Source: Octopus vulgaris (lineage: Eukaryota). Taken from it: 64,000 bases of DNA. The first letter of the stretch is position 1. Each line of letters opens with the position of its first letter. Positions 39,035-62,300 of this stretch are shown piece by piece. The DNA is taken from contig OX597816.1 of the NCBI GenBank assembly GCA_951406725.2, positions 130,138,001 through 130,202,000 on the forward strand, given 5' to 3'. A program made the position numbers.

Positions 39035-42000
39035 CTACAAAAGAAAAAGAAAAAAGGAAATTTTAATTCTAAAATGTCAAAAGTTCACCAAGATTACACG
39101 AAATATATTTGTATGTTAATATAAAAAAAAAAACAGCAACTTTAATAAATTTCTTTGGGAGGAAAAGAAAACCCTTGAAGGTTTTAACATCCCCAAAGTA
39201 TCATATTCAGGGAAGTTGTATGTGCAAAGATTAATTACTGAATTCTAGCAGATTTAGGGAAGCTGTACATGCAAAGGTTAAATACTAAATCTTATATTTT
39301 AAATTATTTAATCCTTGTGAGTGTATTAGATGATTGGGTGAAGACTTAAATGAATACTTTAAATGAAAACAGCACAATTTTTATATGCTACTAAAATTAT
39401 GCCCTTCCTCAAAGTGATTATTAATTTTGTTTTTATTCTAAACAATGAGAAGTTGGATATATGCCTAAAATTAAATACAAATTTATTTGCTATATCTTCT
39501 TGGCAACAGAACTTTTTTAATAGCTAATGTACATATTAACCAAAACAAATGTAGTTCTACAACTCATAAAAAATTATCTTCATACATTTTGTCAATAACA
39601 CTAAGACAAAATGCTGAGTTACATTTAGTAGAATGAAATATATTGAAGTATTCCAAAGAAAGAAACATCACTTTAAAATTGTTTGAAAATGATACAAACC
39701 ATGAAATTTGTAGCAAAAACAATATATTTGCAATTCTATATCAATTGCAATTGTTACATTTCACTAGATTTTATTTTTAATTAACAACAGTTAAAACAAC
39801 ATGTATGTAATTAACTTTTTTGTTTTTATTTTCCTTTTTGATTAGTAATGATTAAAAATATTAAATGTTGATAGCTTCTCTTACTTTAATATCATAACCA
39901 GTTAATATTATGTTTATATTATGTTAAAGATGAATTAATTTCAATTGGTGGAATGTGAACAAAATCATCTTCGCTCAACTGGTTGTCCTCTTGGGGACAA
40001 AAAACAAACATGATAATTATTAAGAAAGAAAATTTGAGATATAAAAATAATCCACCAATCCAAATTATTTAACAGGATTTTGACCTGCTTGAAGATTGAC
40101 CAAACATTCACTTTTCTATGTGTAATAAATATTATGTAATTTAAAAAAAAAGCTAATTGAAAAGAAATTGTCATAAGGCTTAGCAGCAATTTCATTTATG
40201 AGGATAAAAGCCGTCTATTTAGAGATATATTTTGCACAAATTGAAATGATTTTCTTTTTTGCACAAATTTTGCAGTTCATTGCTATATTCTTAGTTCAGT
40301 TTTGAGGTCTGTAAATATAAACCAAGCAAATCAAAATAAATTCTTGCACTTACTAGAAAAAAAAAAGGATAAAAAGACAAGAGTATCCCCCAACAGTAGA
40401 AAAAAAAACAACAAAAAAAACTCAAAAAGTGATGCAGTATATACACAAGCAAATATACTGAACATGCATCAGTTAACCACATGAAGTAAGCTGAAAAGTA
40501 AACATGTGGAGCATGCAGATATCCAAGTTTATATTTAATACTGCATGCTGGTTTGGCTATCTGAAAGCGCATGCACCTAATTCAACAAACATGCCTTTAT
40601 AACATGACTAATTAGAATGTAACACCCCACTCTAACCATTACTAACCATATAAAAATATAATTATTACAGCAATCATCATTTATTAATGCCCACAAAGGG
40701 TTAATTGAAAAAGAAGATAATTATTAGTCATCGTGAGGTAAAACTGTAAAAAGTAATGAAACAAAATTAAAACACTATAAAAACCAACTAAATAACAAAA
40801 CTATTAATGTAAACTCTGCAATGCTTATAGCAAAAAAATAAAAATTCTTATCTTAAAAAATGTTTGTTATAAAAATAAAATAAGAGTTTTCTCAGTTACA
40901 TTTTAAAAAATTTAATTCTTCTACATTTCTTATGAATAAGTTTTTAAAATAGAAACCAAAATTTCTAACAATAAATATTAAACAATTTTAATGATAGAGA
41001 ATAAAAATAAAAAAGAGTCTATATTTTGAAACTTTAAAATTTGTTACAACTGTTTAAATTTTAAAAGAAAAAAGTTTATTAGACATAGGTTTATTAGACA
41101 TCAGTAGGTTTATAAAAAATTATTCAACAATTTATCAGTTTATTAGTTTAAGGTTGTTATGCAAGTGTAAGTATTTTTATAGTAATTTACTGACAAAGGT
41201 TATTGAAACATTGTTTCAGTAACATTCATATTTCACTATAGATTTAACTTTGTTAACAATTTTCAAAATTGTTTCAGATAAGCATTATGAGTGGTTATTT
41301 CAAAGAAAAGCATTTTAATGTAAAAGACTTGCCCCAAGAGCATATATTGCAAGAAAATCAAAAATAAGGCTAGAGTATTCTATATTTAGCTAGAGTTAAT
41401 ATTTTTTAGCAATGAAATCCAAGTAGGGCTGTGTCTTTAATATGAACATTTAAAATTTTCCATGATATATTACTTAAATATATATATTTAAAGATTTGCT
41501 TCTCCTACCAATGAGTCATCAAAAATTTATTTTATTATAAATGATAGAGCACCAATATTTTTAATGAAATAGCACAAAAGACCCTTAAAATAAATTGATT
41601 TTTCCTAATATCAAAAAAATAATACATTTCATTTCTGCTCATAATTGCAATACTTTAAATTGATCCAATCAACAGAGGAAATTCAACACATGCTTCTAAG
41701 CTCTTAATGTTTAGATTCCTATCTTCAAAATTTTACTCATGATCAGAAGTCTTTCATACAGAACTTCATTGTTTTCCATCCTTCCATACATCAATAACTT
41801 AAGAAAATTTAAAACCATGGTCAAATTTTTCCATATCACTCAAACTAATTAGTCCACCTATTCAGAATAGTTGCCAAATTTCTTTCAACAAATTCCCTAC
41901 CAAGTTTAAAACAAGAACCAAATGAATTTAAGTCTTATGTATGAAAATAACTTACACCATGGCCAAGATGAGCACATTTTAAAGTGTTGATAAAATCTTA

Positions 42001-59300: not shown

Positions 59301-62300
59301 CCCCCTATTGTTAGGAATAGGGTGATAAATGAATGGTAAGTCATTTATTTTAAGTCCCTGCTGACACAAATTTAAGGCCCAATTCTCAGGTCTGAAAATC
59401 TTTAAACATAGTACATCACTGGAAGTTCAATACTGTTGTGCAAACAAACTAATTTTGAATATTTTGTATTTCTATTAACATAAATGAGCAAACTATATCT
59501 GCTGTTATGCCAAATATATTTGCTGTAACATCCATATATATATATATATATGTATCATGTATATATAAGGAGAGAGCATTCCCCCCCTAAAACAAAGTAT
59601 AGGGTATCAAATAAATGGACATATTTAAGACTTACCTCAAAACTATGGGGGAGGGGGAGTGTTTAAGTATATTAACAGCACTTACCTTTCTAAAATGAAG
59701 CAGTGTGTCTGGACTCTTTTCACACATTTCTGTGATTAGGCAGACAGCTGTCAATAACACACCTGAAATTGTACAAATAGTTTTATTCCCAGTAAAAATA
59801 TATGAACAATTGAAATCTTATAATCATTGAATAAACTTGCCAGTAAACTTCTACAATGACCATCTTTGTCACGATGCATGAAAAAGGTAAGCATTTTAAA
59901 TGAAATTTTCAATAATAGTAGATCTTAAAAGAAAATAACATTTAAAAAGAAAGAACAAATTGAATAGTTTTATCTTTTGGCATTCTTGTTGGCAAAGTTA
60001 GAACAGCTTAGGGTCCAACTTTGAGTCCTATCAATTTAATAAATATTTTTTTTAATAAATACTTTTTGTCATAGTGTCTTTCTATATGAGAGGTTCATAT
60101 ATCAGAGTAGTTGCTATTATGAGATAAAGGATATATACACAAAATGAAGAAGAGCCTTAAGTCATTAACAATAATGTCATTGTTGCTAGTGGTCAGCCCA
60201 AAGTGATGTACCCAAGGAAGATGTTTGATTGTAAAACACCAGCTATCAAAAGCTGGTATATCATAAGAAATGACTAAACACAATTGCAAAAGTCACTTGT
60301 GTGATCTTTCATAAACAGATAATGAAATTAGCCCAATTAATTTTGGGTAAAGAAATGGATTTAGAAATGTTTATGTCTTTCCTAAGAATATTCATAAATG
60401 AAATGAAATAACCACAGCTAGGAATAAAAACTACGTTTGCAACTGCTGTCTGTTTATTCTACATCAAAAGCCAGATATACTCAACAATATTGAGAATTTC
60501 AGCAGACATGTGTATTGGTAACATTTAAAGAAGACATTTATGAACAAGAGACTTCTACTTTAGATTTTCAATTAATATAAATTTTTTTAATAACATTATA
60601 CAAGGATGAATTATATAGTATTAAGTTAAGTAACATTATAGTTCAATAGATTCAATAAGTTGTAGTTGCAAAATGATTAGTGTTGAGTTTGGATTATCTA
60701 TGCAAACCTTATATGGTGGCCCTTAGAAGTACAAACTTCTGCAATGTGAGGTGTTCTGGATTGCAGAGTAGAGTGTCAGTATGAATGAGGACATCATCAG
60801 TGAAAAGTGCATACATAATAATCAGGCTTACCCTCACTGACACTGAGGAGGAGACATTGAAATACCACTAAGAAAGATTGTTGAATGAAGAGAATGCATG
60901 GGAAAGAAAAGGACTACCCACCAGCAAACCCAACAGAGTTGCCAGTTACTGGAATTGACAAAAATATAGTTAAGCTGGACATTATGAATATAAAGGAAGG
61001 GAAGGCTGCTGGAAATATCTGATAAAATGTGACAGTTGCAAGTCAATTAGTCAGTCTGGTAATACAGGATGGGGTCATCTGCAATAACTGGTGTAACAGT
61101 ATGATCCAGAAAGAAGCAATTATAGGGGTATCAAACTGATAGATTAAGTGAGTGAAAGTAACAAAACAAGTGGTAGTACAACTAATTATGAAGAAACTTA
61201 AGGGATGAGGTGTAGTTCCAATCTCTGTTAACAGGTTATCACTGATGCCCTTTTCCTAATGACACAATTAGGGTCTTATGAAAGCATAGTAGCCAGAGTA
61301 AGAATGAGGTGGAAAAGTTTAGGGCCCCTGTTATCTCAAATGGCAACAAATACATTCTCTCCCACAATGAAGGGTAGATTGTAGGATACTTATATATAAT
61401 GTGATGTTACACACTAGCAAAACATGTGTACTGAATGCAGTGGAGTGTGAATGTTGGAAATAAATAAGGTGAGCATGCTCTGTTCAATGTATAATGTTAG
61501 TGTGGATGAAGAACACAAATGAGCTGAGAGAAAATTCTTGAATGAAAGGAATTAGATGTAGTGTGCTGAAGAAAATACTGAGCTGATACAGATGTGTGAT
61601 ATATATGAAGAAATACATCTGTGAAAAGAAGTGCCTATCAATCCAAGAGGAAGGAACTTGTAGCAGAAGACCAATGAAGACATTAGATGTAGAGGTGAAA
61701 ATTGATTTCATGAAGCTAAATCTCTTGAAGAAGATGACAAAAGACTGCAACAAACAATGTAATGCTATGCTGGAGAAGCCCACTCAACTAATGTAAGCTT
61801 TGGGGAAAAAAATGTAAAAAGATGATGATAATTGGTATAAGGGAGAATATTTATTTTAGAACAATTTGATTAAGACATCTAGAATATCTGACTTTGCAGA
61901 ACCAGCTAACTTATATGTTAGTAGCAAAACATTTTGGGAGAGAGTGATGGACAGATCATCATCATCATCATCATCGTTTAACATCCGCTTTCCATGCTAG
62001 CATGGGTTGGACGGTTCAACTGGGGTCTGGCAAGCCCGAAGGCTGCACCAGGCCAGTCAGATCTGGCAGTGTTTCTACAGCTGGATGCCCTTCCTAACAC
62101 CAACCACTCCGAGAGTGTAGTGGGTGATTTTATGTGCCACCGACACAGGTGCCAGACAAGGCTGGCAGACGGCCACGCTCGGATGGTGTTTTTTATGTGC
62201 CACCGACACAGGTGCCAGACGAGGCTGGCAGACGGCCACGCTCGGATGGTGTTTTTTATGTGCCACCGACACAGGAATAATTGTTAAGCCCCAGGTCTGT

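What the first reader, a model, noticed from the sequence alone, without database searches (positions are those of the whole stretch)
39035..59685. 20.65 kb intron at the conserved neural-microexon position of AP1G1 (HFRK|LVPQ)
Seen: all other complete introns here are 0.3-3.1 kb, but this phase-0 intron is 20,651 bp and has long TE-poor stretches. Recalled knowledge, to be verified: vertebrate AP1G1 inserts a neural 9-nt microexon (NEK) at this same junction, and such microexons are regulated by the SRRM4/eMIC domain. Inference: the intron hosts one or more unannotated frame-preserving microexons, possibly an expanded array that diversifies a surface loop of the gamma-adaptin trunk in cephalopod neurons.
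Basis: partly seen in the sequence, partly recalled or inferred. Interest (0 to 1): 0.8.

Follow-up and report, generated by a model that had tools for sequence, protein, structure and literature searches.

The report
Octopus AP1G1 intron hides 12-nt microexon
The long intron of the octopus gamma-adaptin gene contains one tiny 12-base alternative exon, already present in public gene models, that adds four amino acids at the same spot where vertebrates add three in neurons.

Summary
On the minus strand, a phase-0 GT...AG interval of 20,651 nt (59685..39035) separates the AP1G1 exons ending HFRK and starting LVPQ. The other 15 complete introns of the gene in the window are about 0.34-3.1 kb.

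- The interval holds a 12-nt cassette microexon at 57630..57619 (-), encoding DDLE, with a cag| acceptor and a |gtagga donor.
- It splits the interval into introns of 2,055 and 18,584 nt.
- It is not unannotated. DDLE sits between HFRK and LVPQ in 4 of 15 listed octopod RefSeq-type models (one O. bimaculoides, three O. sinensis).
- A decapodiform transcript-derived protein carries DDYE at the same site.
- No second insert appeared in any cephalopod protein examined, the cassette is not duplicated, and sequence-only candidates are at chance level. The "expanded array" idea has no support.
- Neural or eMIC regulation could not be tested. The cis features are compatible but do not discriminate.

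Short alternative inserts occur at this same junction in vertebrates (NEK), amphioxus, a hemichordate, a crinoid, abalone, a chiton, a nemertean and insects. The site is therefore either an ancient microexon or a recurrent hot spot. I found no paper saying this.

The parts
59686..59762 (-). Upstream constitutive AP1G1 exon (77 nt), ending …CLITEMCEKSPDTLLHFRK. Its donor AAG|GTAAGT is the only 9/9 consensus donor among the 17 scored.
57631..59685 (-). Intron A (2,055 nt), between the HFRK exon and the microexon. Its last 70 nt hold a 68-nt AG-free zone, yUnAy-like motifs at about -22 to -43, and TGC at -5..-3 (57635..57633).
57619..57630 (-). 12-nt cassette microexon GATGATTTGGAG, encoding Asp-Asp-Leu-Glu. 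Acceptor …ttctgcag|, donor |gtagga (6/9 consensus).
39035..57618 (-). Intron B (18,584 nt), between the microexon and the LVPQ exon. No further supported exon, no Rfam family, no Pfam-positive ORF. It holds microsatellites and two fragments of a GC-rich interspersed repeat (42302-42357 and 50581-50917).
38939..39034 (-). Downstream constitutive exon (96 nt), [32 protein letters not shown]. Its acceptor has 19 of 20 pyrimidines.

Best explanation
The 20.65-kb interval is two introns separated by one 12-nt cassette microexon at 57630..57619 on the minus strand.

Shown here:
- When the microexon is included, gamma-adaptin gains Asp-Asp-Leu-Glu between Lys (…HFRK) and Leu (LVPQ…).
- When it is skipped, the two constitutive exons join directly.
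- Both forms exist among public octopus gene models, and a decapodiform cephalopod has the same exon as DDYE.
- The four residues fall at the end of one trunk helix and in the short turn before the next. All solved AP-1 cores lack an insert at this place.

Inferred:
- The microexon has a weak donor and a middling pyrimidine tract. It sits between the gene's best donor and a very strong acceptor, and has UGC just before its AG. It is therefore probably skipped by default and needs an activator.
- By analogy with vertebrates and flies, that activator would be the eMIC domain of Srrm234 in neurons. I put neural or eMIC regulation at about 0.5.
- The length of the downstream 18.6-kb intron is most likely incidental. 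It is AT-rich filler with microsatellites and repeat fragments, not a store of further exons.
For: Exon and protein match:
- P0003 (XP_014784171.1) reads HFRK-DDLE-LVPQ.
- The only AG|DDLE-coding 12-mer|GT on the gene strand of the interval is at 57630..57619. The chance expectation is 8.9e-5, from 49 AG-N12-GT windows.

Isoforms:
- DDLE is present in 4 of 15 listed members of the 20-member octopod cluster: P0003, P0129, P0132 and P0136. It is absent in the other 11.
- In the decapodiform cluster, P0140 has DDYE and is otherwise identical to P0004 over 819 residues.

Splice signals:
- The microexon donor GAG|GTAGGA scores 6/9, and the upstream donor AAG|GTAAGT scores 9/9.
- The microexon acceptor has 14/20 pyrimidines, a 68-nt AG-free zone and TGC at -5.
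- The downstream acceptor has 19/20 pyrimidines.

Structure:
- 1w63_A aligns with a 4-residue gap exactly at DDLE, E = 2.3e-286.
- In the AlphaFold2 model of P0136 (mean pLDDT 76.7), helix 216-225 is followed by a turn at 226-228 and helix 229-243. DDLE is residues 225-228, and the 221-230 block has pLDDT 82.

Literature (PMC8797185, section 10): eMIC-dependent exons have weak own splice sites, a strong upstream donor, long AG exclusion zones and UGC near the 3' splice site, in both flies and mammals.
Against: - No transcript reads were seen. The octopus support is predicted gene models plus one unnamed transcript-derived decapodiform protein.
- 11 of 15 listed octopod models lack the exon. 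These include all six newer O. bimaculoides accessions, three O. vulgaris models and one Argonauta model.
- The eMIC-type cis features do not discriminate in this AT-rich gene. 4 of 13 other acceptors have AG-free zones of 68 nt or more, 3 of 13 have TGC within 40 nt, and two other donors also score 6/9.
- The exon differs from the vertebrate one in length (12 versus 9 nt) and in sequence (DDLE versus NEK).
Confidence: 0.8

Rival explanations
1. More than one alternative microexon lies in the interval, as an array or a second cassette. The 18.6-kb downstream intron would hold unannotated frame-preserving exons used in particular neurons.
For: - Other lineages show two or more different inserts at this junction among their isoforms.
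- Haliotis has GSRHD-type (3), GKE (2) and none (4) among 10 proteins.
- Vanessa has ESGQRE (8), NRKADGQMGGHMM (3) and none (4) among 15.
- Anneissia has FNDGE and VR.
- Lineus has DTDMD, DTDMD plus a longer form, and NKPDPL….
- Nine further AG|open 3-51 nt|GT candidates meet the same simple thresholds as the real exon.
Against: - No insert other than DD[L/Y]E occurs in the 15 listed octopod and 5 informative decapodiform proteins.
- All listed octopod isoforms are the same length downstream of the junction.
- The cassette with 100-nt flanks has no second copy.
- 10 candidates against 6.05 +/- 2.38 in 200 shuffles is not an excess.
- Of 301 AG|3-27 nt open|GT combinations, only DDLE equals an insert seen in any taxon.
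- A search for shorter protein fragments found no cephalopod-like hit. The best identities were 88-89%, in Dreissena and Lottia.
Confidence: 0.12
2. The microexon is real but is not a neuron-specific eMIC target. It would be a low-level or broadly used alternative exon that arose independently of the vertebrate NEK exon in the same ancient intron.
For: - The exon differs from NEK in both length and sequence.
- The cis features do not stand out from the gene's other exons.
- Only four fly/mouse eMIC exons share a position, and AP-1 gamma is not among them (PMC8797185, passages).
- A 20-species study that includes O. bimaculoides names only APBB1/2/3 and MADD as bilaterian-ancestral neural exons. 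It describes frequent convergence in the same coding region (bioRxiv 10.64898/2026.09.05.749416, sections 9-10).
Against: - The junction is the same as that of a vertebrate neural, Srrm3/4-linked microexon.
- UGC lies 3 nt before the AG, and the weak microexon sites sit between strong flanking sites.
- The insert is conserved between octopods and decapodiforms.
Confidence: 0.35
3. There is no functional exon. DDLE would be an artefact of automated gene prediction, and the interval would be one plain long intron.
For: - Most listed models lack the insert (11 of 15).
- No reads were inspected.
Against: - The insert appears independently in models from two Octopus species. It also appears, with one substitution (DDYE), in a decapodiform transcript-derived protein that is otherwise identical to its insert-free partner.
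- The genomic 12-mer has canonical AG and GT flanks, and its chance expectation is 8.9e-5.
Confidence: 0.05

Closest known systems
Vertebrate AP1G1 neural microexon (9 nt, NEK; zebrafish ap1g1_mic in PMC12626424 and PMC12626420)
   Same: It is in the same gene and at the same phase-0 junction between …HFRK and LVPQ…. It is frame-preserving, alternative, and only a few residues long.
   Different: The octopus exon is 12 nt encoding DDLE (acidic), against 9 nt encoding NEK. Neural and Srrm3/4 dependence is documented for the vertebrate exon only. Orthology of the exon itself is unproven.
eMIC (Srrm234 / SRRM3 / SRRM4)-dependent microexon programmes of flies and mammals (PMC8797185)
   Same: The exon is very short, has weak own splice sites, follows a strong upstream donor, and has UGC next to the acceptor AG and a long AG-free zone.
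   Different: These features are not exceptional within this gene. Fly eMIC exons sit in short introns, whereas this one is followed by an 18.6-kb intron. Dependence on eMIC was not tested.
Bilaterian-ancestral neural microexons in APBB1/2/3 (6 nt) and MADD (9 nt), and 'type I convergence' (bioRxiv 10.64898/2026.09.05.749416)
   Same: Tiny in-frame inserts occur at one coding position in many bilaterian phyla.
   Different: AP1G1 is not named in that main text. At the AP1G1 site the length and sequence vary between phyla (9, 12, 15 and 18 nt), so recurrent origin is as likely as common descent.

Membership tests
AP1G1 / gamma-adaptin gene | Adaptin N-terminal trunk plus gamma-adaptin ear, with close identity to named gamma-1 adaptins | tested here: met
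   The exon is 100% identical to XP_014784171.1. The precomputed Pfam domains of the hits are PF01602 and PF02883. P0136 matches AP-1 core chain 1w63_A at E = 2.3e-286.
Cassette microexon | A separate exon of a few to about 27 nt, a multiple of 3, with AG and GT flanks inside an intron | tested here: met
   The exon is 12 nt at 57630..57619 (-). It lies 2,055 nt from the upstream exon and 18,584 nt from the downstream exon, with a cag| acceptor and a |gtagga donor.
Cassette microexon | Both inclusion and skipping forms exist | tested here: met
   4 of 15 listed octopod models carry DDLE and 11 do not. Among decapodiforms 1 carries DDYE and 4 do not. These are gene models and assembled transcripts, not reads.
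Neural eMIC/SRRM-dependent microexon | Higher inclusion in neural tissue | not testable with these tools
   No RNA-seq reads or expression data were available.
Neural eMIC/SRRM-dependent microexon | Inclusion depends on the eMIC domain of Srrm234/SRRM3/4 | not testable with these tools
   This needs a perturbation experiment.
Neural eMIC/SRRM-dependent microexon | UGC close to the 3' splice site, long AG exclusion zone, weak own sites, strong upstream donor | tested here: inconclusive
   All four features are present: TGC at -5, a 68-nt AG-free zone, a 6/9 donor and a 9/9 upstream donor. However, 4 of 13 other acceptors have equal or longer AG-free zones, 3 of 13 have TGC within 40 nt, and 2 other donors score 6/9.
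Ortholog of the vertebrate NEK microexon | Same flanking exons and the same phase | tested here: met
   The insert lies between HFRK and LVPQ, phase 0, in both.
Ortholog of the vertebrate NEK microexon | Similar length and sequence, or a continuous series through intermediate taxa | tested here: not met
   The octopus exon is 12 nt (DDLE) and the vertebrate exon 9 nt (NEK). Deuterostomes share 3-residue inserts (NEK, QNK, NEE), whereas protostome inserts are 4-6 residues and dissimilar.
Array of alternative or mutually exclusive microexons | Two or more alternative exons in the same intron, often duplicated cassettes | tested here: not met
   Only one insert type occurs in the cephalopod proteins. 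The cassette is not duplicated. Candidate counts are at shuffle level.

The most novel reading that the evidence does not exclude
The AP1G1 HFRK|LVPQ junction may carry a microexon that dates back to the bilaterian ancestor. The octopus DDLE exon, the vertebrate NEK exon, the amphioxus QNK exon and the insect six-residue exon would all descend from it. That would make it a third ancestral neural microexon beside those of APBB and MADD, under Srrm234 eMIC control in cephalopod neurons. As in abalone, butterflies and a nemertean, a second rarely used cassette could still be hidden in the 18.6-kb downstream intron.
Probability: 0.2. Interest if true: 0.6.

Novelty: new member of a known kind. Interest (0 to 1): 0.4.

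Why it matters
Very few neural microexons are thought to be shared between vertebrates and protostomes. One study names four same-position exons between fly and mouse, and another names two bilaterian-ancestral neural exons.

At this gamma-adaptin trunk junction, at least nine animal groups place a tiny alternative insert. Cephalopods, with their large independently evolved brains, keep a conserved four-residue version. The site is therefore a compact test case for common descent versus repeated invention of microexons. It also allows a test of whether the insert tunes AP-1 function in neurons.

For genome annotation, the case shows that a 12-nt exon can drop out of newer gene models of the same genus.

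Tried and rejected
- Cassette duplication. blastn-short of the microexon with 100-nt flanks against the window found only runs of A or T and the bare 12-mer at 44043..44032, which has no splice sites.
- Sequence-only microexon prediction. With thresholds no stricter than the real exon, there were 10 candidates against 6.05 +/- 2.38 in 200 shuffles. This has no discriminating power.
- Inserts known from other taxa. Among 301 open AG|3-27 nt|GT combinations, only DDLE matched one.
- RNA genes. No Rfam family reached its gathering score in the intron or the whole window, and there were no tRNAs.
- Nested genes or transposon proteins in the intron. 0 of 10 ORFs (94-127 aa) hit Pfam at E <= 0.1. 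The stop-poor minus-strand ORFs at about 51.2-53.1 kb lie in a C-rich, skewed stretch and look compositional.
- Terminal or inverted repeats of a large element. Only microsatellite-driven pairs and one pair of repeat fragments were found.
- Shorter protein fragments that might carry other cephalopod inserts. None was cephalopod-like. Its unnamed hits were not fetched into any analysis.
- Literature. These searches found no paper describing this exon outside vertebrates: 'AP1G1'+'microexon', 'microexons'+'eMIC'+'octopus', 'microexon'+'octopus', and gamma-adaptin with alternative splicing, neuron-specific and isoform.
Searches used one exon or database proteins.
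Full report
**1. The observation**

The gene lies on the minus strand. The exon 59762..59686 translates to …GVLLTAVCLITEMCEKSPDTLLHFRK and is followed by gtaagt. The exon 39034..38939 translates to [32 protein letters not shown] and is preceded by …ttttcttttgtag. The interval between them is 20,651 nt and phase 0. The window has no N and is 32.1% G+C.

A single-exon search with the 71-aa exon 28036-28248(-) gave a 100% match to XP_014784171.1, AP-1 complex subunit gamma-1-like isoform X1 of Octopus bimaculoides. 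Other gamma-1 adaptins followed (398 hits at E <= 0.001 among 422 candidates, 120 listed).

I placed database proteins on the window with local tblastn and read the splice sites. This gave 17 constitutive exons, from 59762 down to the stop near 16110. The 15 other complete introns measure about 335 to 3,104 nt. The intron upstream of 59762 runs off the window.

Searches used one exon or database proteins.

One residue suggests that the window comes from the O. sinensis / O. vulgaris group and not from O. bimaculoides. The window encodes GLAPIVAF. All seven listed O. sinensis and O. vulgaris models carry the same Pro, whereas all seven O. bimaculoides models have Thr. This is a single position, so it is only a hint.

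**2. What is in the interval**

P0003 (XP_014784171.1) reads HFRK-DDLE-LVPQ. On the gene strand of the interval there are two 12-mers that can encode DDLE, and they are identical (GATGATTTGGAG).
- The one at 57630..57619 is flanked by …tcttttgtgtattctgcag| and |gtaggaac.
- The one at 44043..44032 has neither AG nor GT at its flanks.

The interval holds 49 AG-N12-GT windows on this strand. Given the base composition, the expected number that encode DDLE is 8.9e-5.

The interval is therefore two introns, of 2,055 nt (59685..57631) and 18,584 nt (57618..39035), around a 12-nt cassette exon.

**3. Is the exon alternative and conserved?**

The octopod 90% cluster has 20 members, of which 15 were listed.
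- DDLE is present in 4: P0003 (O. bimaculoides XP_014784171.1), P0129 (O. sinensis X3, XP_036357169-72), P0132 (O. sinensis X4, XP_029634178.1) and P0136 (O. sinensis X6, XP_036357174.1).
- It is absent in 11. These include the six newer O. bimaculoides accessions listed, three O. vulgaris models and one Argonauta hians model.

In the decapodiform cluster all 6 members were listed. One is a named partial from Sepia pharaonis that lacks the site.
- One unnamed transcript-derived protein (P0140) has DDYE.
- Four have no insert.
- P0140 equals P0004 at all 819 other positions.

All listed octopod isoforms have the same length downstream of the junction. The only other variation is N-terminal.

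The exon is thus a real, annotated, alternative cassette that is conserved across coleoids. It is not an unannotated one.

**4. Is there more than one?**

I found no support for this.
- The cassette with 100-nt flanks has no second copy in the window.
- With thresholds set no stricter than the real exon (at least 14/20 pyrimidines, at least 20 nt AG-free, donor at least 6/9, open frame, 3-51 nt), the interval has 10 candidates including the real one. Shuffles of the interval (200, keeping its dinucleotide make-up approximately) gave 6.05 +/- 2.38.
- Of 301 AG|open 3-27 nt|GT combinations, only DDLE equals an insert seen in any animal.
- A search restricted to shorter proteins brought no cephalopod-like fragment. 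The best identities were 88-89%, from Dreissena and Lottia.

On the other hand, other animals do show two or more inserts at this junction (section 7). A rare second exon therefore cannot be excluded without reads.

**5. The rest of the interval**

- No Rfam family and no tRNA were found.
- No Pfam match was found for the ten ORFs tested, 94-127 aa.
- Tandem repeats are short: AT, AC and ATG runs, and a 62-63-nt unit repeated 2.4-2.7 times at 50581-50748.
- Only 675 of 20,651 nt match elsewhere in the window: 42302-42357, 46669-46721, 50581-50917 and 55493-55721.
- Long direct or inverted repeats are microsatellite artefacts, apart from one pair of repeat fragments in opposite orientation.
- G+C is 0.24-0.41 per kb. 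A C-rich (gene strand) stretch at 51-53 kb explains a run of stop-poor ORFs.
- Nothing here argues that the length of the 18.6-kb intron is functional. Without a cephalopod repeat library or other cephalopod genomes, this remains an inference.

**6. How the exon probably works**

Shown:
- The microexon donor GAG|GTAGGA matches 6 of 9 consensus positions. This ties for the lowest among the 17 donors scored.
- The upstream donor AAG|GTAAGT is the only 9/9.
- The microexon acceptor has 14/20 pyrimidines, a 68-nt AG-free zone and TGC at -5..-3. The downstream acceptor has 19/20 pyrimidines.
- Several yUnAy-like motifs lie between about -22 and -43 (read).

This matches the architecture described for eMIC-dependent exons in flies and mammals. 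That architecture consists of weak own sites, a strong upstream donor, a long AG exclusion zone and UGC near the 3' splice site (PMC8797185, section 10 read).

The internal control weakens the point.
- 4 of 13 other acceptors in this gene have AG-free zones of at least 68 nt.
- 3 of 13 have TGC within 40 nt.
- Two other donors score 6/9.

The inference that the exon is skipped by default and switched on by Srrm234-eMIC in neurons is therefore reasonable but untested. I put it at about 0.5.

At the protein level, all solved AP-1 cores found lack an insert here. 1w63_A aligns with a 4-residue gap at DDLE.

In an AlphaFold2 model of the O. sinensis X6 protein (30-sequence alignment, mean pLDDT 76.7, pTM 0.54), the insert is residues 225-228. 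Those residues span the last position of helix 216-225 and the turn before helix 229-243. The local pLDDT is 82.

'Surface turn of the trunk' is therefore supported for secondary structure. I could not determine which face of the complex it lies on.

**7. Comparison across animals**

Of 258 fetched proteins of at least 300 aa, 200 had both flanking anchors. Of these, 133 have no insert and 67 have one. These are mostly predicted isoforms and are not independent counts.

| Group | Insert(s) and counts |
|---|---|
| Vertebrates | NEK (22) |
| Saccoglossus (hemichordate) | NEE |
| Amphioxus | QNK |
| Octopods | DDLE (4) |
| Decapodiform | DDYE (1) |
| Chiton | EHSKT |
| Nemertean | DTDMD, plus longer forms |
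| Crinoid | FNDGE |
| Abalone | GSRHD |
| Insects | six-residue inserts: ESGQRE (15), DSGHRE (2), DTGSRE, DPGHRE, ETSHSE |
| Unnamed or odd models | ESLR, FQKDKFSAPC, and inserts of 14, 16, 24 and 53 aa |

Cluster look-ups show the insert is alternative within genera.

| Genus | Forms seen |
|---|---|
| Haliotis | GSRHD-type 3, GKE 2, none 4, no anchors 1 (of 10) |
| Branchiostoma | QNK 7, NK 1, none 8 (of 16) |
| Anabrus | insert 6, none 1 |
| Vanessa | ESGQRE 8, a 13-residue insert 3, none 4 (of 15) |
| Culicoides | insert 2, none 1 |
| Schistocerca | insert 12, none 3 |

Inserts that begin with Val (VR in scallops and a crinoid, VRT in a tick, VSE in a snail, VSVD in Drosophila) read like translation of a GTAAGx donor. 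They are more likely tandem-donor use or read-through than microexons. This is my inference, since I saw no genomic check outside octopus.

For vertebrates, ap1g1 is one of 21 selected conserved neural microexons in a zebrafish Srrm3/4 study (PMC12626424, passages). It is also named in a second zebrafish study (PMC12626420, passage).

**8. What is in print**

- Torres-Méndez et al. 2022 (PMC8797185, passages and section 10) report only four eMIC exons at the same position in fly and mouse: spg, EndoB, unc-13 and unc-104. 'AP-1' does not occur in the main text.
- A September 2026 preprint covers 20 bilaterians including O. bimaculoides (10.64898/2026.09.05.749416, sections 9 and 10 read). It names only two bilaterian-ancestral neural exons, in APBB1/2/3 and MADD. 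It also describes frequent independent origin of neural exons in the same coding region, which it calls 'type I convergence'.
- My searches found no paper on this exon outside vertebrates.

**9. Verdict**

- The core inference, a frame-preserving microexon at the vertebrate position, is right.
- The exon is single and is already present in public gene models.
- The array idea is unsupported.
- Neural or eMIC regulation is plausible but untested.
- The exon is a new, undescribed member of a known kind.
- The wider point worth following up is that this junction is a pan-bilaterian site of tiny alternative inserts.

Noticed in passing
window 44032-44043 (-): A second, identical copy of the 12-mer GATGATTTGGAG lies 13.6 kb downstream in the same intron. 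It has no AG before it and no GT after it, and its flanks are unrelated. It is probably chance.
   Followed up: partly
window 50581-50917 and 42302-42357; similar ORF translations near 1183-1462, 2470-2814, 24594-24883 and 61948-62332: A GC-rich interspersed repeat recurs through the window. The intronic copy has an internal 62-63-nt unit repeated 2.4-2.7 times. It gave no tRNA or Rfam match. It looks like a SINE-type element but was not classified.
   Followed up: partly
upstream of window 59762, beyond 64000: Octopus AP1G1 models differ mainly at the N-terminus: the HFRK junction sits at residue index 200 to 274. Some carry a 26-residue segment (LPGHPGEG…TVSPN) just before GVLLTAV. That exon was not found in the 4.2 kb of upstream intron held in the window.
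   Followed up: partly
window 21459-21619 (-): The window encodes GLAPIVAF. All 7 listed O. sinensis and O. vulgaris models carry the same Pro, whereas all 7 listed O. bimaculoides models have Thr. The window may therefore come from the sinensis/vulgaris group.
   Followed up: yes
window 59632-59685 (-), start of the intron: Reading through the donor stays open for 17 codons (VSAVNILKHSPSPIVLR, then a stop), with in-frame GT at +9, +42 and +54. In other animals, Val-initial inserts at this junction (VR, VRT, VSE, VSVD) look like such tandem-donor or read-through products.
   Followed up: partly
related proteins P0149 and P0261-P0268 (Haliotis), P0209 and P0291-P0304 (Vanessa), P0196 and P0270 (Anneissia), P0006 and P0142-P0145 (Lineus): Several non-cephalopod lineages have two or more different inserts at the same junction among their isoforms. 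Multi-cassette use of this intron therefore exists elsewhere.
   Followed up: partly
window 5587-6117 (-), 11515-11940 (-), 29387-29902 (-): These are transposon-like ORFs in other introns or downstream of the gene. One has a below-threshold match to the mariner-type Transposase_1 (E = 0.0087, 16.4 bits against a cut-off of 24). The 171-aa ORF gave only a weak DUF6451 match.
   Followed up: partly
window 51000-53100: This stretch has raised G+C (0.35-0.38) and strong strand skew. It carries a run of stop-poor minus-strand ORFs of about 100 aa with no Pfam match. They are probably compositional.
   Followed up: partly
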